Source: an uncultured Verrucomicrobiae bacterium (GTDB taxonomy: Bacteria; Verrucomicrobiota; Verrucomicrobiia; Limisphaerales; JAFGQR01). Taken from it: a stretch of DNA of 64,000 bases. Shown here in pieces: positions 1 to 29,043 of this stretch (position 1 is its first letter; each line of letters starts with the position of its first letter). Position numbers and translations under genes: made by a program. The stretch is taken from assembly GCA_963788655.1 (NCBI GenBank), contig CAWBHS010000009.1, positions 1 through 64,000 on the forward strand, read 5' to 3'. The notes under the pieces were generated by a model. That model had not been told where the DNA came from. It saw only the letters and a list, made by a program, of their open reading frames with translations, and searched no databases.

Positions 1-331
1 TTTGGTGAACTGCTTCTCAATCAGTCGTCCAATCTCTGGGTCAATGGGTACAAACGTAACAGGCAAAGTTCCAAGCCGTAAGCGGAGACTCGCTGATGAA
101 ATTGACGTAGGCGTCAGCACCTCCACCCTCTGGACTCTCCGCTCTCCACAGCTCCTTCTGGTGTAGGTCATAGGCAACGAGGTTCTGGGCAGGGCGACCA
201 TTCGGGAACTCCATGTAGTCGAAAATGACCAGCACGCGGTCACCGACGCGACGCGCTTGAAAAACACGCTGGCTGAACCTCCACCAGCGCGGTTCTACGA
301 ACACTCGGTTTGGCTCACAGGGAAGCTCCAT
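1..331 (-). CDS. Cassette hypothetical protein; probable 3' frameshift
   Basis: ORF 41..331. A shifted frame continues as IDPEIGRLIEKQFTK to the window edge. ATG lies just past the attC at 340-465. Confidence 0.65.
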
Positions 332-339
332 CGCGATTC

Positions 340-465
340 ATCGAACGATTAAGGTCACCCACAGCCGCCGGAGGAGGACGTCCGCAGCGAATCGGGCGAC
401 CGAACTTCCGGCGACGATGGCAACTGAGAGGGCGGGCGGCTGTTGGGTGAACCGCCTTGTTCGCC
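340..465 (-). repeat. attC site (126 bp)
   Basis: Minus strand GGCGAAC-AAGGC-GGTTCACC-CAACAGCCGCC ... GGCGGCTGTG-GGTGACC-TTAATC-GTTCGAT; arms pair with two extra bases. Confidence 0.9.
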
Positions 466-900
466 ATTCATCTTGAGCAAGGAATACTCCTCAAAAATGT
501 CCCTGAACGAATTCCGCCGCTCCTCGCCAAAGTCCAACCTTACGAGATTCCAGCCGCCCTGTCCCACAGTGATCTCATACACCTCAGCCGTTTGCCCCTT
601 TTCGGGACCTGACAGGACAAGAACGTGATCGCCAATCCTGAACGGCGCTCCGTTGAGTTGACTACAAATGGGACGAATGAAGGGCCAGCATGTGAACATG
701 CCGACAAAATAACCCAAGAAGGTTGCTGGAATGAGGCCAAGCGCAACAAGGAGCGTGGCCTGCCAGTCGGAAAAGTAGGCTGCCAAACCCACCCCCTGTG
801 AGAGCAGGATGAACAGGGTAGCGTCGAGAGCACAAGCACCGAGCGCCCACGAGACAGCTACGGGGTAGGCGCAAACTTTGTTGTGCAAGCGCGGTTTCAT
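355..900 (-). CDS. Cassette membrane protein with possible KOW-like segment
   Basis: Two hydrophobic helices, then FRIGDHVLVLSGPEKGQTAEV. The C-terminal tail is encoded by the attC. Confidence 0.7.
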   Translation of the reverse strand: MKPRLHNKVCAYPVAVSWALGACALDATLFILLSQGVGLAAYFSDWQATLLVALGLIPATFLGYFVGMFTCWPFIRPICSQLNGAPFRIGDHVLVLSGPEKGQTAEVYEITVGQGGWNLVRLDFGEERRNSFRDIFEEYSLLKMNGEQGGSPNSRPPSQLPSSPEVRSPDSLRTSSSGGCG

Positions 901-1427
901 GTTGCAGGCGAACGATCAAGGTCAGGCACAGCCGCCGGAGGCGGACGTGGCCTCCGATGATGATGTTCGAGTTTCCATAGTCGGTCAACTGCCGGGCGCA
1001 GCGGCTGTTGCCTGCACCGTCTGGTTCGCTGCCCGTCGATCCCAGAAGTGACCTGCCGTGACGCCGACCAGAAAAGCAGCCACCACGTTCCATGTGAGTG
1101 CGAAACCCACCAACCGTTGAAGCGGATATTCGTCAGTGTGAGGGTCGTGAGCCCGGAGAAACCCATTACGACAAAGAGCACGATGATCTCGGCGCCAGCC
1201 AAGCAGACCAATGCCAGCCCGAAGATCGCAAGATGTAACGCCGGATGATCAAAGCGATGGCTAGGATGGCTACTGAACTCCCCACCTTCCCCGCGAGGGT
1301 CTCTGCCACCCACAAGAACCCAATCAGGGAAAACCATACTCCCAAGGAATCCACCAACGACCCATGCGGCAAACAGCATCAGAACTCCCAGACAAACCCG
1401 ACCGATATTGGCGGTGGCGCGTGGCAT
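897..1427 (-). CDS. Cassette membrane protein (hypothetical)
   Basis: In-frame ATG at 1427 just past the attC; hydrophobic segments. The longer track start at 1487 lies inside the attC. Confidence 0.6.
   Translation of the reverse strand: MPRATANIGRVCLGVLMLFAAWVVGGFLGSMVFPDWVLVGGRDPRGEGGEFSSHPSHRFDHPALHLAIFGLALVCLAGAEIIVLFVVMGFSGLTTLTLTNIRFNGWWVSHSHGTWWLLFWSASRQVTSGIDGQRTRRCRQQPLRPAVDRLWKLEHHHRRPRPPPAAVPDLDRSPAT
907..1030 (-). repeat. attC site (124 bp)
   Basis: AGCGAAC-CAGAC-GGTGCAGG-CAACAGCCGC ... GCGGCTGTG-CCTGACC-TTGATC-GTTCGCC. Confidence 0.9.
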
Positions 1428-1432
1428 GTTAC

Positions 1433-1530
1433 AGCGAACGCTGAGATCACCTATGACGGCCCTCTCCGGAGCCATCCGGATTGCCAACTTACGTGGCGGG
1501 GCCGTTATTCGGTGAATCGTTTGGTTCGGT
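1433..1530 (-). repeat. attC site (98 bp)
   Basis: ACCGAAC-CAAAC-GATTCACC-GAATAACGGCC ... GGCCGTCATA-GGTGATC-TCAGC-GTTCGCT. Confidence 0.88.
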
Positions 1531-2029
1531 AATCTTCGTTTTCCATTTTACATCGAATGGCCTGTCAAGGAGGTGAACCATGTTGAAAACCGCGTCCTTA
1601 CTCACAGTGACCGGCTGTGGTCCGCCAACCCAGACGCTTCTGCGCCAGATGGTTCGTGCAATCTGTGTAATATCGGTCAGCCATCCCAGAATCACCCAGA
1701 ACCTGATACAGGATGAAGCTCTGGCACTCCGCCTCGCTAAGCGCGGCTGCGTAGTCCACTCCTGTTGCATCGGTTTTCATCCGGCCTCGAAGATAATCTC
1801 GATGCTGCTCCATCGCCTTGGCAGCCACGCGCACGTCCTCGGAGCAATAAAGCCGAAGGGCCTCTTCCTTTTCTTTTGAGAACTCTCTGAAGTCTTGCTT
1901 ACCGCATCCCGTCTGACTTAGGGCGAACGGCAAACAGGCCAGTGGAATGACAAGCCAGCGCGCATTGACCAAGGCTCGCCTGCTTTTTGTTAGTAATCGT
2001 CGCTGCACTGTGAGCTTGAGAATGTTCAT
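1489..2029 (-). CDS. Cassette putative lipoprotein; possibly frameshifted near the 3' end
   Basis: ORF 1598..2029 has a basic N-terminus, a hydrophobic stretch and SQTGC. The overlapping frame 1489..1770 runs on to the attC. Confidence 0.55.
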
Positions 2030-2044
2030 GTCGTATGCGGTGTT

Positions 2045-2137
2045 GCCGAACGTCCCGGATCAGGCGCGCCGGGCCAATGATGTCCGATTATCAACCCAGA
2101 CGCGATCCCGGCGTTGCTCGCATCCGGTTTGTTGGGC
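2045..2137 (-). repeat. attC site (93 bp)
   Basis: GCCCAAC-AAACCGGATGCGAGCAACGCCGGG ... CCCGGCGCGCCTGATCCGGGAC-GTTCGGC. Confidence 0.85.
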
Positions 2138-2634
2138 AAAGTGCTTATTCCTAATCTCGGCGGCAACGTGCTCGACGACTCCCCGCTTTAGGACGTAGCC
2201 GTCAGAATCGAACGGAGGCTTTTTGACCAGTGTTCCGGATACTCCTTTTGGCACAGCGCATACACGCGCCACGGAAAGGCTGTCGCAGGGAACTCCCACA
2301 GACACCACCCTATCGCCTCATCCGCCAAGATGACCGGATCAGAATCGATGGACAAATTGAACTGATTGGAACTGCCACTGACCGAATCTGCCCACCCTGA
2401 ACTCTGGCGGATTTGCGTGCCGATCGCAAAACGAATGTCGTGAGGACCTCCATTGGTGATCGCAAAGATGGTGGTTACTTGCCCGGACGTTTGATTTGTC
2501 TTGTAGCCCTGCACTGAAACGGAAACTGGTCCAGATAGCCCCTGCGAAGAGGAACTCGCACAAGATACAAATAGGTCACGGCAAGCAGCGAGAGGAAACA
2601 AACGATGATTATTAATGACGATCTTGCGCTTCAT
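2060..2634 (-). CDS. Cassette exported hypothetical protein, frameshifted
   Basis: ATG at 2634 (MKRKIV...) just past the attC. Frames 2188..2856 and 2060..2308 together fill the cassette. Confidence 0.55.
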
Positions 2635-2645
2635 GCGAATGCTTT

Positions 2646-2785
2646 GCCCAACGTCAGAACTGCAGCGACAGCCACCCCGCCTGTGGCGACGCCGGCGACT
2701 CCCGACAACCAGAGCGCGTCGCCGAAGCGCGCGACGGTCGAACGGCAAAGCGGGGCGGCTGTTTGCTCCAGTGATCTTGTTCGGC
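2646..2785 (-). repeat. attC site (140 bp)
   Basis: GCCGAAC-AAGATCACTGGAGCAAACAGCCGCCCCGC ... GCGGGGTGGCTGTCGCTGCAGTTCTGAC-GTTGGGC. Confidence 0.85.
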
Positions 2786-2855
2786 ACTGGAGGGTGCCCG
2801 GCAGAAAATCGCTGAAATAACAGCGAAAGCAGTCGTGCCTGGCATCGCACCCGCA

Positions 2856-4323
2856 TTACTGACGCTCCTCGATTGTCAGTTTTATAAATCCTGCCGGAGT
2901 ATATGCCGGCACACTTGCCGTGCGGTATCCATTGATGTCCGGGGCAGAGAGCGCCACTCCGTCAGGTGGCCAAGTTGTCACATCGTCACTCGCGTAAACC
3001 TGGTAAGTGATGTCCGACCGGCCGCTGTAGAAAGTCATCTCCAGCATTCCGCCTGCAATCTCGCCTTGGGGCAACGACCCCAGAGATCCTCACGCGGGTT
3101 GAGCATGGAGCGCATACGCGACCAACAGAGGCACACTGTCGCCATTAAGATCATCCGACATCAAAGCATCATATGGCTGTCCATGCGTAATCAGCCAGGG
3201 TGCGTGCGGGTAGGCAGTAGTGTCAATTTCCACCGCCGGGTAGCCCATCCACAAAAGGAGAGGTGAAGCCTGTGGCAGTATCGAAATAGTATATCGTGAA
3301 CCCGTTGCCCGCGAAGTCGAACACGCTATTGCCGAACGTCCCAGGAGGGTCACCGAAAAAGTAAGCGCTTGTCAGGCTGCTACTACCGAAAAACGCAGAG
3401 CCTTCGATGCTGGTGACACTGTCGGGTATCGTAACGCCTGTCAGATTGTGGCAGTTGAAAAACGAGTAATCCCCGATGCTCGTAACTGCGGATGGGATGG
3501 AATAGGCGCCGACGCGTCCCGGTGGATAGGCAATCAATTGTGTCGCGGAGCCGTTGAGCAACACACCTTGAATGCTGCTGTATTCAGTGCTTCCGGGATC
3601 CAACATCCATGCTCGTCAGGCTATGGCAGTAGACAAACGCCAAAGCGCCGATGCTGGTAACGCTGTCTGGTATGGCAACGCTGGTAAGACTACTGCAACC
3701 GCCAAACGTCCCAGTCTCCGATGCTGGTAACGCCATTGGGTATGGTGACGCCCGCCAGACTGCGGCAATCGTGAAACGCGTGATCCCTGATGCCAGACAA
3801 ACACTGGGGGAAGAGAATAAGCACCGCCGCGTCCGGCTGGATACGCGATCAACTCGGTCAAAGAGGCGTTGAATAACGCTCCGTCACTACTATGAAACCA
3901 AGAGTTACCGGTGGCAACGTCGATACTTGGGAGTTGGTCGCAGGACAAAAACGCCGCGCTCCCAATACTGTTAAGATCAGCAGGTAGCGTGATGCTGTGA
4001 AGGCTGCTGCAATAGCTGAAGGCAAAGGGGCCGATGCTGGTAAGGCTGCTTGGCAGGGTAACACTCGTCAGATTCGCGCAATAAGAAAACGCCGAGTGAC
4101 CGACACTGGTGACCGGTAAACCGTCAATCTCCGCTGGGATGACAACAGAGCCGACGGCGTCGTCGGGATAGCCAGTGATTTCGACCCCGGTATCCCCATT
4201 GATGAGCTCGTACGTGAAATCACCAAACTGGGCAGCATGGCTTGTCGAGGCCAGCGCGATGATGAGGGCCAAAGCGCAAAGCAGACGGTGCCGAAAGTGC
4301 ATCACTGTTGAATGTATGAACAT
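2856..4323 (-). CDS. Cassette-borne BspA-type leucine-rich-repeat surface protein, split over several frames
   Basis: Signal peptide (ALASTSHA). Repeats such as VTSVGHSAFSYCANLTSVTLPSSLTSIG occur in 3616..4323 and 3223..3606. C-terminal pieces are 3090..3353 and 2856..3074. Confidence 0.85.
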
Positions 4324-4365
4324 GGGATTACGCTCTGCTGGTTGTGTTGTTTCGGCGTGTCATCA

Positions 4366-4462
4366 ACCAAACGCGGAGATCACCCATGAGCGGCATCCCA
4401 ATACCGCTCAAATTCTAAACTGACGTGCTTGCCGCTCATTGGGTGAATCGATTTTGTTAGCC
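4366..4462 (-). repeat. attC site (97 bp)
   Basis: GGCTAAC-AAAATC-GATTCACC-CAATGAGCGGCA ... TGCCGCTCATG-GGTGATC-TCCGC-GTTTGGT; begins right after the stop codon at 4464. Confidence 0.9.
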
Positions 4463-4463
4463 C

Positions 4464-4775
4464 TCAAAACCACTTTTTACGGGCGATCCCGTCGACGGCA
4501 TTCAGTGGCACATAAATTGTAACGCTCTTGCGATCTGACTCCTGCAAACTCGGCGGATATGCCTGCTCGAATATCAGCCAGCCACCTTCTTGGCGGATGG
4601 CTTCTGTATTGTAGGTCGCAGCTCCAGCTCTCACGTCGTAGAAATCTCCGGTTCCCGTGAGTGAGGGAAATCCCGGAACCGCGTTCGCCACCGATGAAGG
4701 TGCCGTGCAACAACCGGTGAGCATAAAGGCAGTAAGCGCGAGCGTCAGTAGAACAAAACAGTTTTTTGGATTCAT
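4464..4775 (-). CDS. Cassette small lipoprotein
   Basis: MNPKNCFVLLTLALTAFMLTGC lipobox; in-frame ATG at 4775 downstream of the attC. Confidence 0.7.
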   Translation of the reverse strand: MNPKNCFVLLTLALTAFMLTGCCTAPSSVANAVPGFPSLTGTGDFYDVRAGAATYNTEAIRQEGGWLIFEQAYPPSLQESDRKSVTIYVPLNAVDGIARKKWF

Positions 4776-4807
4776 ATGAACGTGTGGTTGGTGGACATGT
4801 AGTAGAT

Positions 4808-4933
4808 GGCTAACGCTGAGGTCACCGACAGCCGCCCAGAAGCGTCCGTCGGCAGCCAATTCGACTGCCAAATCTCCCGCTCCGTTCAAGTTCACAACGC
4901 GGGGCGGCTGTTCGGTGAACCGCTTGGTTCGGC
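4808..4933 (-). repeat. attC site (126 bp)
   Basis: GCCGAAC-CAAGC-GGTTCACC-GAACAGCCGCCC ... GGGCGGCTGTC-GGTGACC-TCAGC-GTTAGCC. Confidence 0.9.
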
Positions 4934-4980
4934 TGTGTGTCCTCGTTCCTTAGATGCATTTGGTAATCCATAATCGCGTG

Positions 4981-5417
4981 CTATTCTATTGCCCGAGTAA
5001 CATCGAAATAAAGCGTGTCATCCTTTCCCGAATCCCACCGCGAATACGTAAAGACATCGAATCTCTTATCATTAAGGGTCAACGCCTCAATCTTCTCTTC
5101 CTTGATTTTTCCGAAAGCACCAACATACCAATTTTCGACATCTCTAACTTGCCTCTGGTCACGGCACCTCCGGATAACCAGGGCCGTGTCCAGCGATGCC
5201 CTCCGGAGCCGGAAACTTTGTGTGGTAATTCTCGATCGTATTTTGAAAGTGAACCTGACTCGCCATACTCGATCCCAGGATACCAAAGCCAGCCACGCCC
5301 AGGAATACCAATGCCCAGTCCTCCGTGCGGACCAGCGCCCATGCACCCGCCAATTCCCAGAGTAATCGACAGCAAAAAGAACGTGCTCAGAATGTACGGT
5401 AACATGTGAGATTTCAT
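4981..5417 (-). CDS. First cassette gene, putative lipoprotein, frameshifted
   Basis: 5079..5417 has a hydrophobic leader ending IGGC; 4981..5346 supplies a plausible C-terminus. Confidence 0.55.
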
Positions 5418-5660
5418 GTTGACGCCGCAGTGTTAATAAACTGCAAATCGTTGGTTTATCCGAAACCTTCCGTTAACGTTGGTGACCGTTGCTTTTCATG
5501 GTTCCAATAAATTGGGTTTTACTGCATGGGTCAAGACATTAGTTGCGTAAGCGCAAGCACAACGGAGGCAGACCGGATTGACCTGCGTGCGCATCTCTTT
5601 CCGGATAAACCGACAATGTGTCGGTTTATCCGAGCGCGATTGACCAGGTAAAACCGACGG
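5418..5660. promoter_or_regulatory. Candidate attI / cassette-promoter region
   Basis: Perfect 14-bp-arm palindrome at 5602-5632, a further GGTTTATCCGA half-site at 5453-5463, and minus-strand TTGACC-N17-TTTATT at 5534-5506 facing the array. Confidence 0.4.
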
Positions 5661-5679
5661 CAATGTCCCAGGTTGCCTA

Positions 5680-5953
5680 AGAGCCTGTTTTAAATTTGGG
5701 CGAGGTTCTGCGGCGAGGGATTTTGGACGCGGGCGAGCCGGCGCGGTCTGCGCATCCCCGCAGTGGGCTGTAAGGATCGAGCCAACGAAGCCCACGTTCA
5801 AAAGACCCGCCGCCCTGCGGGTTTTCGCGGAAAAGGCCGGCTGGCTTCGTTGCTCCTCGCTTACAGATCGCTGCGGGTATGCGCGTTCGTCGCGCCTCGC
5901 CAGCCGGCCTTTTCCGCGAAAACAGGACCACGCCGAATTTTAAAACAGGCTCT
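5680..5953. mobile_element. MITE (274 bp, non-autonomous, IS5-like ends)
   Basis: Terminal inverted repeat AGAGCCTGTTTTAAA, TA on both flanks, and an internal perfect 25-bp inverted repeat at 5821-5845/5899-5923. Confidence 0.8.
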
Positions 5954-6130
5954 TAGTATTGCCGGACGTTCTGCGACGTGGCTAATGTCCCGGGGCCCTC
6001 CGAGACAAACGGGACGCGCGGTACTATCAAATTGCGGTTATTGCCCTCGGACCGAATGACACCGTGGACCGTCTATTTGGCACACGCCATTGGTCACACC
6101 CCAGATCCTGTATTAAACTCCAGCCGCCTC

Positions 6131-6216
6131 GTAGCAGCCGACGTGAGGAGGCTCAGATTTCTTCGAAAGACAGAACTGCTCCCGATAAGAATGAGCCTCC
6201 TCACGTCGGCTGCTAC
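6131..6216. repeat. GTAG-type REP doublet (REPIN)
   Basis: GTAGCAGCCGACGTGAGGAGGCTCA and its exact reverse complement 36 bp later. Confidence 0.8.
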
Positions 6217-6233
6217 CGTTTTTTAACAGGCGC

Positions 6234-8663
6234 TCAGGCACGCTTACGAGTGGCTCCTCCTTTCGCCGCCGCCCGTGGACGAGAATCCCGCAATGCATCC
6301 TCTCCCGCGCCCCATTTCCAATGGCGGATTTCGGGCATGTCCTGGCCGTGTTGATGCACGTAGTTTTTGTGGTCGATCAGTTTGTCCCGAATGGCTTGTT
6401 TGGCATAGGCCGCACGGGCGCCCAGCGAGGGCACGCGGTCGATCACGTCGCCCACCAAGTGGAAGCGGTCGAGGTCGTTCATTACCACCATGTCGAACGG
6501 CGTGGTGGTGGTGCCTTCTTCCTTATAGCCGCGTACGTGGAGGTTCTTGTGGTTGGTGCGCCGATAGGTGAGGCGATGGACCAGCCAGGGATAACCGTGG
6601 TAGGCGAAGATGATCGGCTTGTCTTTGGTGAACAAGGCGTCGAAGTCGCGGTCGCTCAAGCCGTGCGGGTGTTCGGTCTGCGGTTGCAGGGTCATGAGAT
6701 CGACCACGTTGATGACGCGGATTTTGAGTTCGGGGAAATGCTGGCGGAGCATGTCCACCGCCGCGAGCGTTTCCAGCGTGGGCACGTCGCCGGCGCAGGC
6801 CATCACCACGTCCGGTTCGCAGCCTTCGTCGTTGCTGGCCCAACGCCAGATGCCGATGCCGGCGGTGCAATGCTTGACCGCGGCATCCATGTCCAGCCAT
6901 TGCAGGGAGGGTTGTTTGCCAGCGACGATGACGTTCACGTAATGGCGGCTGCGCAGGCAATGATCGGTGACCGACAACAATGTGTTGGCGTCGGGCGGCA
7001 GATATACCCGGATGATGTCCGCCTTCTTGTTCATGACGTGGTCAATGAAGCCCGGATCCTGGTGACTGAACCCGTTATGATCCTGGCGCCAGACGTGGGA
7101 AGTGAGCAAGTAGTTCAACGACGCAATGGGGCGGCGCCAGGGAATGTGGCGGGTGACTTTGAGCCACTTGGCGTGCTGGTTGAACATGGAATCGATGATG
7201 TGAACGAACGCTTCGTAACAGGAGAACAAACCATGCCGGCCCGTGAGCAGGTAGCCCTCGAGCCAGCCCTGGCACAGGTGCTCGCTCAGCACTTCCATCA
7301 CCCGGCCATCCGGGGAGACGTGGTCGTCGGTCTTCAAAATCTCCGCGGTGGAAACGCGTTCCGTCACATCAAACAGCGCGCTGAGCCGGTTGGAGGCCGT
7401 TTCATCCGGCCCGAAGACGCGGAAGTTCCGGCCCTCCCAGTTCCGTTTCATGGTATCGCGCAAAAAGGCGCCCATGATGCGCGTGGCTTCGGCTTCAACT
7501 GTGCCCGGCTGAGGAACCTTCACCGCGTAGTCATGGAAGTTGGGCAGCTTGAGATCGCGCAGCAGAATCCCACCGTTGGCGTGCGGGTTTTCGCCCATGC
7601 GCCGTTTGCCCTGGGGCGCCAGTTCGGCCAGTGCGGGAATCAGCCGGCCATTCTCGTCGAACAACTCCTTGGGGTGGTAGCTCTTCATCCATTGTTCGAG
7701 CATTTTTAAATGGGCGGGATTCGTGGCCAGGCCGGCCAGCGGCACCTGGTGCGAACGGAATGAGCCTTCGGTGGGTTTGCCGTCCACTTCCTTGGGGCCG
7801 GTCCAGCCTTTGGGCGTGCGCAGGATCATCATGGGCCAGGTCGGGCGGTTTTTGAATCCCTTGGCGCGCGCTTTGGATTGTATCTGTTTGATCTCCGCGA
7901 TGATCGTATCGAGCGTGCCGGCCAGCAGTTGGTGGACTTCCTCGGGATCATCCCCTTCGACCACGTACGGCGCATACCCGTAGCCGCGGAACAGGTCTTC
8001 CAGTTCGTCGGGCGCAATGCGGGCCAGCACCGTGGGATTGGCAATCTTGTAGCCGTTCAAATGGAGGATGGGCAGGACCGCGCCGTCATGCACCGGATTC
8101 AGGAATTTGTTGCTGTGCCAACTGGTGGCCAGCGGACCGGTCTCCGCTTCGCCGTCGCCGACTACGCAAGCGACGATCAAGTCCGGATTGTCGAACGCGG
8201 CGCCGTAGGCATGCGCCAGCGAGTAACCCAGCTCACCACCTTCGTGAATCGAGCCCGGCGTTTCCGGGGCCACGTGACTCGGAATGCCGCCCGGGAACGA
8301 AAACTGGGTGAAGAGCCGTTTCATGCCCGGTTCGTCCTGGGAGATGCTCGGATACAGTTCGCTGTAGGTTCCCTCGAGATAGGTGTTGGCCACCAATCCC
8401 GGACCCCCGTGGCCGGGGCCGGTAATGTAAATCATATTGAGATCATGCTCCTTGATGAGCCGGTTCAGGTGTACGTAAAGCAGATTCAATCCCGGCGTGG
8501 TGCCCCAGTGCCCCAGCAGCCGCGGCTTCACGTGCTCGGCTTTCAGCGGCTGCTTCAGCAACGGATTGTCGTAGAGATAAATCTGGCCGACCGACAGGTA
8601 ATTGGCGGCCCGCCAATAGGCGTTCATTTTCTGCAAAAGTTCGGGGGATAATGGTCTATTCAT
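6234..8663 (-). CDS. xfp: Xylulose-5-phosphate/fructose-6-phosphate phosphoketolase
   Basis: [18 protein letters not shown] motif GDGEAETG...[15 protein letters not shown]. Confidence 0.97.
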
Positions 8664-28744: not shown

Positions 28745-29043
28745 ATGCTGACCAGGGCGATGAACCGAACCGCCAACCCGCTTTGCTGTTTGCGTTATTG
28801 TGAGTTTTGTTGCTCATTTTTCCTTTCGTGGCGAGCGCTTACCGGGGAGCGGTCATTTTACGTTGGGGGAGCAAACATGAACAATGGTTGGCCGAACCGA
28901 TCAAGGCACCGAGTGAGCGGCAAGCACGTCAGCTTGAAGTATAAACGCTTTTCCAAGGGAGGCGCACCCGGGACCGCCCGCAAGCGTTCGTCACGGTCCC
29001 TTGCGCTCTCGAACGTCCCGCGTCGCGGCCCGAGACACCCCAC

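What the first reader, a model, noticed from the sequence alone, without database searches (positions are those of the whole stretch)
1..5417. Integron cassette array without a neighbouring integrase in a Verrucomicrobia-like genome
Seen: seven 93-140 bp imperfect palindromes, each placed between unrelated co-oriented ORFs, with AAC/GTT cores, 5-6 bp spacers, inner L boxes and extra unpaired bases. The six complete cassettes are 442, 1720, 601, 612, 526 and 567 bp. Established: this is attC architecture, and such arrays lacking intI are called CALINs. Inference: an accessory-gene capture platform in a lineage where integrons are little characterised, carrying mostly unknown genes and no resistance genes I recognise.
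Basis: partly seen in the sequence, partly recalled or inferred. Interest (0 to 1): 0.85.

Follow-up and report, generated by a model that had tools for sequence, protein, structure and literature searches.

The report
Integron cassette array that lost its integrase
A soil Verrucomicrobium's chromosome carries a genuine integron gene-cassette array with no integrase gene beside it, and the conserved leader next to it is likely the insertion site of a former integron whose integrase was deleted; this is an ordinary member of a known kind of element.

Summary
Seven attC hairpins lie at 340-465, 907-1030, 1433-1530, 2045-2137, 2646-2785, 4366-4462 and 4808-4933, folding strand +. The cassette genes are on the - strand.

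A covariance model built from 79 sites elsewhere in this genome scores all seven at 37-108 bits. The same model finds the recombination site behind each of the six cassette genes of a clinical class 1 integron.

No integrase gene is on the 106-kb contig, so the label CALIN (a cluster of attC sites lacking an integrase) is right. The window starts at the contig start, so the array is cut there. That is the integrase-distal end.

New here: the proximal end keeps a 235-bp leader (5428-5662). It is homologous to the intI-to-first-cassette spacer of an integron on contig C49. After the leader come an ATG and 14 bases, then a 280-bp MITE-like repeat where intI should be. The array is therefore likely a decapitated integron.

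The genome holds at least 114 such sites, three intI over the family cut-off (one without stops) and several intI remnants. Integrons are already reported in Verrucomicrobiota. This scan has noted other integron arrays in this genome before. Verdict: real, a new member of a known kind, modest interest.

The parts
1..345 (-). Distal cassette cut by the contig start; ORF 41-331 (96 aa, unknown function; an atlas search gave DUF7957 as a lead only)
   Evidence: (window = C9:1-64000)
340..465 (+). attC site 1 (+ is the folding bottom strand), AAC at 344-346
   Evidence: R2 105.8 bits
346..912 (-). Cassette of 567 bp; ORF 355-900 (181 aa, membrane-like; its stop lies inside attC 1)
   Evidence: a 66%-identical homologue sits as a cassette in a different array
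907..1030 (+). attC site 2, AAC at 911-913
   Evidence: R2 100 bits
913..1438 (-). Cassette of 526 bp; ORF 897-1427 reads through the whole of attC 2 and may be frameshifted
1433..1530 (+). attC site 3, AAC at 1437-1439
   Evidence: R2 66.1 bits
1439..2050 (-). Cassette of 612 bp; ORF 1598-2029 (143 aa, lipoprotein-like N-terminus)
2045..2137 (+). attC site 4, AAC at 2049-2051; 81-88% identical sites occur in related genomes, one in the array beside an intI (G006:C66)
   Evidence: R2 37.5 bits
2051..2651 (-). Cassette of 601 bp; ORF 2188-2634 (148 aa, unknown function)
2646..2785 (+). attC site 5, AAC at 2650-2652
   Evidence: R2 43.7 bits
2652..4371 (-). Cassette of 1720 bp; BspA-type leucine-rich-repeat protein with a signal peptide, split over several frames (3616-4323, 3223-3606, 2856-3074)
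   Evidence: Pfam LRR_5, E 3.7e-19 and 8.2e-12; ORF list
4366..4462 (+). attC site 6, AAC at 4370-4372
   Evidence: R2 63.9 bits
4372..4813 (-). Cassette of 442 bp; ORF 4464-4775 (103 aa, lipoprotein-like)
4808..4933 (+). attC site 7, AAC at 4812-4814
   Evidence: R2 107.7 bits
4814..5427 (-). Integrase-proximal cassette of 614 bp; ORF 5079-5417 (112 aa, lipoprotein-like); its junction with the leader reads CGC where 5 of 7 other leader copies read AAC
5428..5662 (+). Leader: a candidate attI plus the upstream region of intI. It carries GGTTTATCCG at 5453-5462 (partner ATAAAC at 5436-5441) and the 31-bp palindrome 5602-5632
   Evidence: 72% identity over 260 bp to the intI-to-first-attC spacer of C49 and 99.6% to C27
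5663..5680 (+). Remnant of intI: an ATG aligned with the start codon of the C49 intI, four further codons, then a stop
   Evidence: no intI-like coding sequence follows
5677..5956 (.). 280-bp MITE-like palindromic repeat (18-bp terminal inverted repeats) where intI should be
   Evidence: 14 further copies listed in this genome at 89-98% identity; copies in relatives
5957..6231 (.). Spacer shared with C27 (145 of 146 bases identical over 5957-6102), then a REP-like hairpin repeat (6103-6231) ending 3 bp before the phosphoketolase stop codon

Best explanation
Window 1-5427 is a real integron cassette array with seven attC hairpins, seven complete cassettes and one cassette cut by the contig start. 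It has no integrase gene beside it, and the adjoining 235-bp leader is likely the attI and promoter region of a former integron whose intI gene was deleted.

Shown:
- The seven sites fit a structure model of more than 100 sites in this genome.
- That model also finds textbook attC sites.
- In six intI-bearing integrons the model strand equals the intI strand and the array lies upstream of intI. An intI is therefore expected on the + strand just right of 4933.
- At that position lies a leader homologous to the spacer between intI and the first cassette on contig C49. It ends in an ATG aligned with that intI's start codon.
- 14 bases after the ATG a 280-bp multicopy MITE-like repeat begins. A short spacer, a REP-like hairpin and the 3' end of a phosphoketolase gene follow.

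Inferred:
- intI was lost by deletion, perhaps by recombination involving the repeat.
- The cassettes can now only be excised in trans, by attC x attC recombination, by an integrase encoded elsewhere. Contig C69 has the only intI without stops.
- New insertion at this leader is unlikely. The crossover triplet reads CGC, and the cognate C49-type integrases are all broken in the assembly.
- The array therefore works as a passive, slowly decaying store of accessory genes, mostly secreted, lipoprotein-like or membrane proteins.
For: (1) Model R1, built from 4 of the window's sites, found 80 matches on 31 contigs of the same genome, including arrays next to intI on C49 and C59.

(2) The 79 sites collected outside the window array pair in 91.1% of cells, against 26-41% when partners are slid. 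20 of 21 pairs show changes on both sides, and 0 of 500 shuffles reach the observed values.

(3) In those 79 sites AAC is kept in 76-77, GTT in 77-78, an unpaired T in 79 and a second unpaired base (A) in 65. A 6-bp stem separates the two unpaired bases, and both lie on the arm opposite AAC. This is the bottom-strand layout described by Nivina 2016 (PMC5027507, passages).

(4) R2, built from those 79 sites, scores all 7 window sites, including the 3 that were never in a seed.

(5) R2 finds 6 sites in a Klebsiella class 1 integron. Each lies directly 3' of one of the 6 cassette genes, on the intI1 strand (E 3e-8 to 1e-3). No other match in that 15-kb locus reached E <= 1.

(6) The geometry is the same in C49 and C59 and in 4 relatives: G006:C66, G016:C255, G019:C2 and G004:C144.

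(7) Leader homology: window 5413-5665 matches C49:289925-289675 at 72% over 260 bp. That stretch lies between the intI start and the first cassette. Eight loci share the layout, and similarity starts exactly at the expected crossover base.

(8) No intI coding remnant was found on C9's left end. Other arrays keep partial remnants: C59:7167-7479 and C47:1639-1897, and C100 and C62.

(9) A homologue of cassette ORF 355-900 (66% identity over 143 aa) sits between two R2 sites in a 9-site array on an unrelated metagenome contig, with different neighbours.

(10) None of the cassette genes was found in 20 related genomes at the DNA level; only attC sites and repeats matched.

(11) GC content is 53-57% in the array against 60-63% in the flank.
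Against: - IntegronFinder's own attC model could not be run. R2 descends from a seed of four window sites, so it is not fully independent of them.
- Model E-values are rough because the calibration was shortened.
- The leader's role as attI rests on position and homology only. Its motif was not found upstream of intI in 0 of 6 integrons of related genomes, and a simple consensus scan found no promoter in it.
- The junction triplet here is CGC, not AAC (C49 has GAC), so this copy may never have worked as a canonical attI in its present form.
- The genome is a MAG (86% complete, 5.6% contamination, 115 contigs). The junction lies at a multicopy repeat, so a mis-join cannot be excluded, although C27 shows the same intI-less junction.
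- Several ORFs run into or through attC sites and one gene is frameshifted. This could be sequence error rather than decay.
- No recombination or expression was observed.
Confidence: 0.85

Rival explanations
1. The array belongs to a complete integron, and the missing integrase lies beyond the contig start. The 'CALIN' would then be an assembly artefact.
For: The window begins at base 1 of contig C9. Many attC hits lie at contig ends (C12:37, C48:1, C7:15, C47:438, C56:495), so arrays do break this assembly. The intact intI on C69 sits about 75 bp from a contig end.
Against: In 6 of 6 intI-bearing integrons examined, intI lies on the model's strand, downstream of the array. That places it to the right of 4933, inside the contig, where the leader, a repeat and housekeeping genes lie instead. 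The contig start is the distal end. No contig overlaps the first 150 bases.
Confidence: 0.03
2. The array never had its own integrase. It arose by off-target insertion of cassettes at a secondary site, or by a rearrangement that split it from an integron elsewhere.
For: Both routes are proposed for CALINs (Cury 2016, PMC4889954, passages). The proximal junction lacks the AAC triplet, as a secondary-site event might.
Against: The 235-bp leader with an aligned intI start codon is the integrase-side half of a platform. Neither secondary-site insertion nor a split within the array would bring it along. A split exactly at the start of intI remains possible and is hard to tell from deletion.
Confidence: 0.06
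3. The contig is mis-joined at the 280-bp multicopy repeat. In the real genome the leader is followed by an intI gene.
For: The repeat has 14 further copies listed at 89-98% identity. The genome is a fragmented MAG.
Against: Only 14 bases separate the ATG from the repeat. Contig C27 carries the same ATG-plus-14-bases junction, the repeat and the next 146 unique bases at 145 of 146 identity, with an extra 195-bp insert. A repeat of 280 bp whose copies differ by 2-11% is a weak cause of mis-assembly.
Confidence: 0.05
4. The palindromes are an unrelated family of intergenic repeats (REP- or MITE-like) that merely resemble attC.
For: This genome is rich in palindromic repeats: two other families lie at 5677-5956 and 6103-6231. 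Rfam holds no matching family.
Against: The model finds known class 1 attC sites. The sites flank single genes in one orientation, cluster beside integron integrases in 6 loci, keep the AAC/GTT triplets and the asymmetric unpaired bases, and bound a gene that recurs as a unit in another array.
Confidence: 0.01

Closest known systems
[quoted passage not shown] 2016, PMC4889954)
   Same: At least 2 attC sites on one strand, no intI within 4 kb, cassettes of unknown function without resistance genes, in a genome that also encodes IntI elsewhere.
   Different: In that study no intI pseudogene was recognised near 95% of CALINs, so their origin was left open. Here the integrase-side leader and the intI start codon survive, which points to loss of intI as the origin.
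Sedentary chromosomal integrons such as the Vibrio cholerae superintegron (VCR sites)
   Same: Chromosomal location, long attC sites (about 93-140 bp) with large variable loops, homogeneous site family, cassettes mostly of unknown function.
   Different: There is no integrase in cis. The first unpaired base is A rather than the usual G. This genome spreads its sites over at least 31 contigs with several platforms, not one visible array (the assembly may exaggerate this).
Class 1 integron (intI1-attI1-cassettes), e.g. on Klebsiella plasmid NZ_CP102078.1
   Same: Same strand geometry and same site architecture. One covariance model detects both. The genome's intact IntI is 35% identical to IntI1 over its full length.
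   Different: Class 1 attC sites are 60-70 bp and carry resistance genes. The leader here bears no likeness to attI1 that I tested, and intI is absent.
Xanthomonas chromosomal integrons with inactivated intI (recalled from Gillings et al. 2005; only the search listing of a 2025 Xanthomonas preprint was seen)
   Same: Chromosomal arrays that persist after decay of the integrase gene.
   Different: As I recall, intI is still recognisable as a pseudogene there. Here the coding sequence is gone entirely and a repeat occupies its place.

Membership tests
attC (integron cassette recombination site) | Inverse core sites: 5'-RYYYAAC on one arm pairing with GTTRRRY-3' on the other, with conserved AAC and GTT triplets | tested here: met
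   7 of 7 window sites have AAC and GTT. In 79 sites elsewhere, AAC is kept in 76-77 and GTT in 77-78. The consensus is GCCNAAC ... GTTNGSC.
attC (integron cassette recombination site) | Imperfect hairpin with R box, unpaired central spacer of about 5-6 nt per arm, L box, stem and variable terminal structure; length 57-141 bp | tested here: met
   DNA folds of -18 to -40 kcal/mol. 91.1% of cells pair and 20 of 21 pairs covary. Spacers are 6-7 nt and lengths 93-140 bp. The criteria come from PMC5027507 (passages).
attC (integron cassette recombination site) | Extrahelical bases on the arm opposite AAC of the recombined (bottom) strand: one in L'', then a conserved T beyond a 6-bp stem | tested here: met
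   An unpaired T is present in 7 of 7 window sites and 79 of 79 others. The second unpaired base lies 6 bp away on the GTT arm. It is A (7 of 7; 65 of 79) where the literature says 'usually a G'.
attC (integron cassette recombination site) | Detected by IntegronFinder's attC covariance model | not testable with these tools
   The program and its model are not available here, and Rfam has no attC family. As a proxy, the model trained on this family finds the site 3' of 6 of 6 cassette genes of a class 1 integron, on the intI1 strand.
attC (integron cassette recombination site) | Found in arrays adjoining an integron integrase, bottom strand on the intI strand | tested here: met
   This holds for the site family in C49, C59, G006:C66, G016:C255, G019:C2 and G004:C144. 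It does not hold for this array, which has no intI.
attC (integron cassette recombination site) | Recombined by IntI as folded single strands | not testable with these tools
   This needs a conjugation or recombination assay.
CALIN | [quoted passage not shown] | tested here: met
   There are seven sites. No TIGR02249 match at E <= 0.001 lies on the whole 106-kb contig, and tblastn found no intI-like coding remnant. The genes right of the array are phosphoketolase and acetate kinase.
Complete integron | intI gene adjoining the array | tested here: not met
attI site | Lies between intI and the first cassette, and similarity between platforms begins at the crossover base | tested here: met
   The homologous stretch on C49 lies between the intI start and the first cassette. 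In 8 aligned loci, similarity starts at C|AGTG, directly after the RYYYAAC-like end of the first cassette.
attI site | Crossover triplet GTT (AAC on the other strand) at the junction | tested here: not met
   The window copy reads CGC and C49 reads GAC. Five other copies (C9 right end, C27, C47, C59 left end, C56) read AAC.
attI site | Bound and recombined by the cognate integrase | not testable with these tools
   This needs an experiment. The repeated GGTTTATCCG motifs are only candidate binding sites.

The most novel reading that the evidence does not exclude
The integrase-less leaders are not dead. Two of them (window 5428-5662 and C27) are 247 of 248 bases identical and share the same intI deletion, yet they carry unrelated first cassettes, and similarity breaks exactly at the crossover base. 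Cassettes would then have been exchanged at orphan attI sites after intI was lost. On this reading the genome runs a distributed integron in which one or a few integrases serve many attI-bearing arrays in trans.
Probability: 0.15. Interest if true: 0.6.

Novelty: new member of a known kind. Interest (0 to 1): 0.35.

Why it matters
The result gives a clean, checkable example of how a CALIN can arise. The integrase is deleted while the leader and the array stay in place. The 2016 IntegronFinder study proposed this route but could support it for only 15 of 279 CALINs.

It also yields a candidate attI and regulatory leader for a Verrucomicrobial integron family, with repeated GGTTTATCCG motifs and a 31-bp palindrome. 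attI sites are unknown for most integrons, so this makes one testable.

The genome as a whole has more than 100 attC sites, one intI without stops, two with stop codons and several deletion remnants. It is a good natural series for studying integron decay in a soil phylum.

No resistance gene and no new mechanism are involved.

Tried and rejected
- Rfam scan of 1-7000 at E <= 1: only a chance microRNA hit on the REP-like hairpin.
- First model R1 missed site 4 and scored site 5 weakly at E 0.037. The broader model R2 resolved both.
- Public sequencing runs holding 1-6300: none was listed. No read-level test of cassette excision, strain variation or leftward extension was possible.
- Leftward extension by contig overlap: no contig overlaps the first 150 bases. 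A crude regular-expression count of sites in the same call undercounts and was dropped.
- Sigma-70 consensus scan of the leader: 0 promoter-like sites.
- Leader motif upstream of intI in 6 integrons of related genomes: 0 of 6. The leader was also not among the listed matches in 20 relatives (35 matches were not listed).
- Phosphoketolase loci of relatives G020 and G019: no attC site beside them. The locus comparison is uninformative because these are different families.
- Paralogues of the cassette genes in the own genome: none beyond attC-encoded tails and generic LRR repeats.
- Pfam on 10 cassette ORFs or fragments: only LRR_5 passed, plus a sub-threshold KOW hit. The atlas search gave DUF7957 as a lead for ORF 41-331 (score 0.95). 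Pfam did not confirm it.
Its six-frame translations show no such motif by eye. I did not scan them against Pfam.
- I asked whether leader identity between C9 and C27 shows selection. The unique spacer after the repeat is just as conserved (145 of 146 against 247 of 248). It therefore shows recent duplication or gene conversion, not constraint.
Full report
**What is there**

The window is the first 64 kb of contig C9 (106,114 bp) of an 8.96-Mb, 115-contig assembly. The assembly is 86% complete with 5.6% contamination. Bases 1-5417 hold small ORFs, all on the - strand, separated by imperfect palindromes. Folded as DNA, each palindrome gives a long hairpin of -18 to -40 kcal/mol. Each hairpin has a short outer stem (GAAC/GTTC), an internal loop, and a long inner stem with bulged bases.

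**Test of the sites**

I built covariance model R1 from four of the sites.
- In the window, R1 recovered a fifth site well, a sixth weakly, and missed the seventh.
- In the whole genome, R1 found 80 matches on 31 contigs. Strands were consistent within each cluster.

I then collected 79 matches from 20 stretches outside the window's array.
- On this alignment, 91.1% of cells form pairs, against 26-41% when the partners are slid.
- 20 of 21 pairs change on both sides.
- 0 of 500 shuffles reach the observed values. The alignment is model-fitted, which favours the structure.

Column counts on the 79 sites:
- AAC is kept in 76-77 and GTT in 77-78.
- An unpaired T is present in 79 of 79.
- A second unpaired base is A in 65.
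- The two unpaired bases are separated by a 6-bp stem, and both lie on the GTT arm.

Nivina et al. [quoted passage not shown] The extrahelical bases lie on the opposite arm. The first is in L'' (usually G), and a conserved T follows after a 6-bp stem. Spacers are 5-6 nt and total length is 57-141 bp.

Model R2, built from the 79 sites, scores all seven window sites on the + strand at 107.7, 105.8, 100, 66.1, 63.9, 43.7 and 37.5 bits. The same places score 5-26 bits on the - strand. With filters off, nothing else in 1-6300 reaches significance.

R2 descends from a seed of window sites, so I also ran it on a Klebsiella plasmid class 1 integron. I fetched that integron using the genome's own IntI as query. 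R2 found six sites there. Each lies directly 3' of one of the six cassette genes (estX, a HAD gene, aadA2, cmlA1, aadA1, qacL), and all are on the intI1 strand. No other match in that 15-kb locus reached E <= 1. The window's sites and textbook attC sites therefore fit one model in the same orientation.

**Cassettes**

A seventh cassette of 614 bp (4814-5427) lies next to the leader. An eighth is cut by the contig start.

Pfam recognises only a BspA-type leucine-rich-repeat protein in the 1720-bp cassette, and that gene is split over several frames. Read by eye, most of the other ORFs begin with signal-peptide, lipobox-like or membrane segments.

GC content is 53-57% in the array against 60-63% in the flank. 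None of the cassette genes is found at the DNA level in 20 related genomes; only attC sites and repeats match.

A 66%-identical homologue of ORF 355-900 lies between two R2 sites in a nine-site array on an unrelated metagenome contig. Its neighbours there are different. This is comparative evidence, from one case, that the unit moves as a cassette.

**Where the integrase should be**

The genome has three TIGR02249 matches over the curated cut-off:
- C69, with no stops, about 75 bp from a contig end.
- C49, with one TAG.
- C59, with one TAA.
It also has fragments elsewhere.

On C49 and C59 the model strand equals the intI strand, and the array lies upstream of the intI start. The same holds in four related genomes: G006:C66, G016:C255, G019:C2 and G004:C144. 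In the window this places intI on the + strand to the right of 4933. The contig start is therefore the distal end of the array, and the absence of an integrase is not an assembly artefact.

**What lies to the right**

- Bases 5413-5665 match C49:289925-289675 at 72% over 260 bp. On C49 that stretch is the spacer between the intI start codon and the first cassette.
- Eight loci of the genome share this leader, two of them cut by contig ends.
- Similarity begins at C|AGTG, directly after a GCCTAAC-like end of the first cassette, where the crossover is expected.
- The leader contains ATAAAC-N12-GTTTAT, a 31-bp palindrome CGGATAAACCGACA-N3-TGTCGGTTTATCCG, and an ATG aligned with the start of the long C49-type intI.
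- In the window that ATG is at 5663. Fourteen bases later a 280-bp palindromic repeat begins (5677-5956, with 18-bp terminal inverted repeats). It has 14 further copies listed in the genome and copies in relatives.
- A 146-bp spacer, a REP-like hairpin repeat and the stop codon of a phosphoketolase gene follow.
- Neither the family model nor tblastn with three IntI queries finds any integrase coding remnant here.
- Other arrays keep partial remnants: C59:7167-7479 and C47:1639-1897, with weak traces at the right end of C9, and C100 and C62.

The genome thus shows a series running from an intI without stops, through stop codons and internal deletions, to complete loss with the leader retained.

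**Contig C27**

C27 carries the same intI-less block. Identity to the window is 247 of 248 in the leader, 263 of 280 in the repeat, 145 of 146 in the spacer and 110 of 127 in the hairpin. C27 also has an extra 195-bp insert flanked by CTAAG. The cassettes to one side and the genes to the other are unrelated to those in the window.

This argues against a mis-join in C9. It shows either a recent duplication or a gene conversion of the block. It does not show selection on the leader, because the unique spacer is equally conserved.

**Mechanism**

Shown: attC architecture, array geometry, absence of intI, and leader homology.

Inferred:
- intI was deleted, possibly through the repeat.
- The cassettes can be excised only in trans.
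- Insertion at this leader is unlikely. The junction triplet is CGC rather than AAC, and every C49-type intI in the assembly is broken. The intact C69 protein is only 36.5% identical to the C49 protein.
- The frameshifted LRR gene and the ORFs running through attC sites suggest decay. Sequence error in a MAG is an alternative.

**Context and novelty**

The best FtsH relatives are Verrucomicrobiia and Chthoniobacterales MAGs at 72-78% identity. Integron integrases over the cut-off occur in 7 of 20 related genomes. R2 sites at E <= 1e-5 occur in 17 of 20. In the own genome R2 finds 114 sites at E <= 1e-5, with only 150 candidates scored.

Integrons are already listed for Verrucomicrobia (Cury 2016, PMC4889954, passages) and for Verrucomicrobiota (Ghaly 2021, PMC8618304, passages). 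Both papers name loss of intI as one proposed origin of CALINs. Cury found intI pseudogenes near only 15 of 279.

My searches for print on Verrucomicrobial integrons and on CALINs that retain attI turned up no description of this leader. I read only listings and the passages named above.

Earlier notes of this scan report many integron arrays and attC-targeting elements elsewhere in this genome. The kind of element has therefore been seen before on other DNA of this genome.

**Verdict**

This is a real CALIN, most likely a decapitated integron. It is a new member of a known kind, and of modest interest.

Noticed in passing
window 5677-5956: 280-bp palindromic MITE-like repeat with 18-bp terminal inverted repeats (CTAAGAGCCTGTTTTAAA) and internal 25-nt perfect arms. 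14 further copies are listed in this genome at 89-98% identity, and copies at 72-83% occur in related genomes G001, G004, G006, G019 and G020.
   Followed up: partly
window 6103-6237 (perfect arms 6131-6155 / 6192-6216): REP-like hairpin repeat at the 3' end of the phosphoketolase gene. Dozens of copies at 73-92% identity occur across this genome and in most relatives, often matching on both strands.
   Followed up: no
L011 2012-2207 (C27:16011-16206): An insert of about 195 bp with its own long inverted repeat, flanked by a CTAAG duplication, sits exactly at the end of the 280-bp repeat in C27 and is absent from the window's copy. It looks like a second small mobile element.
   Followed up: no
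window 28747-28857 (-): Lone attC-like match (33.8 bits, E 3e-7) between two genes, with GAC/GTC in place of AAC/GTT. It may be a solitary or decayed site, or a chance hairpin.
   Followed up: no
L017 (C9:98000-106114), leader at C9:102870-103130, sites from 103512 to the contig end: The other end of the same contig carries a second array in the opposite orientation. It has its own leader copy and only weak traces of intI, so both contig ends run out into cassette arrays.
   Followed up: partly
L009 1384-2223 (-) and 564-869 (-) (contig C49): The C49-type integrase has an extra N-terminal region of about 140 aa (NWPEWL...LPERH...FCRRGRGEV motif). This region recurs in remnants on C47, C59 and C39. 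On C49 and C59 a second intI copy or remnant follows the first in tandem.
   Followed up: partly
L022 1-130 (C56 start) and C39:1-112: Two contig starts carry complementary halves of one leader with a short overlap. C56 and C39 are therefore probably neighbours in the genome, joining an array to an integrase-side region.
   Followed up: no
window 355-465 and 897-1030: Two cassette ORFs run into or through the downstream attC site, so their last 37-45 residues are encoded by the hairpin. tblastn picks up the same 'tails' at attC sites on other contigs.
   Followed up: partly
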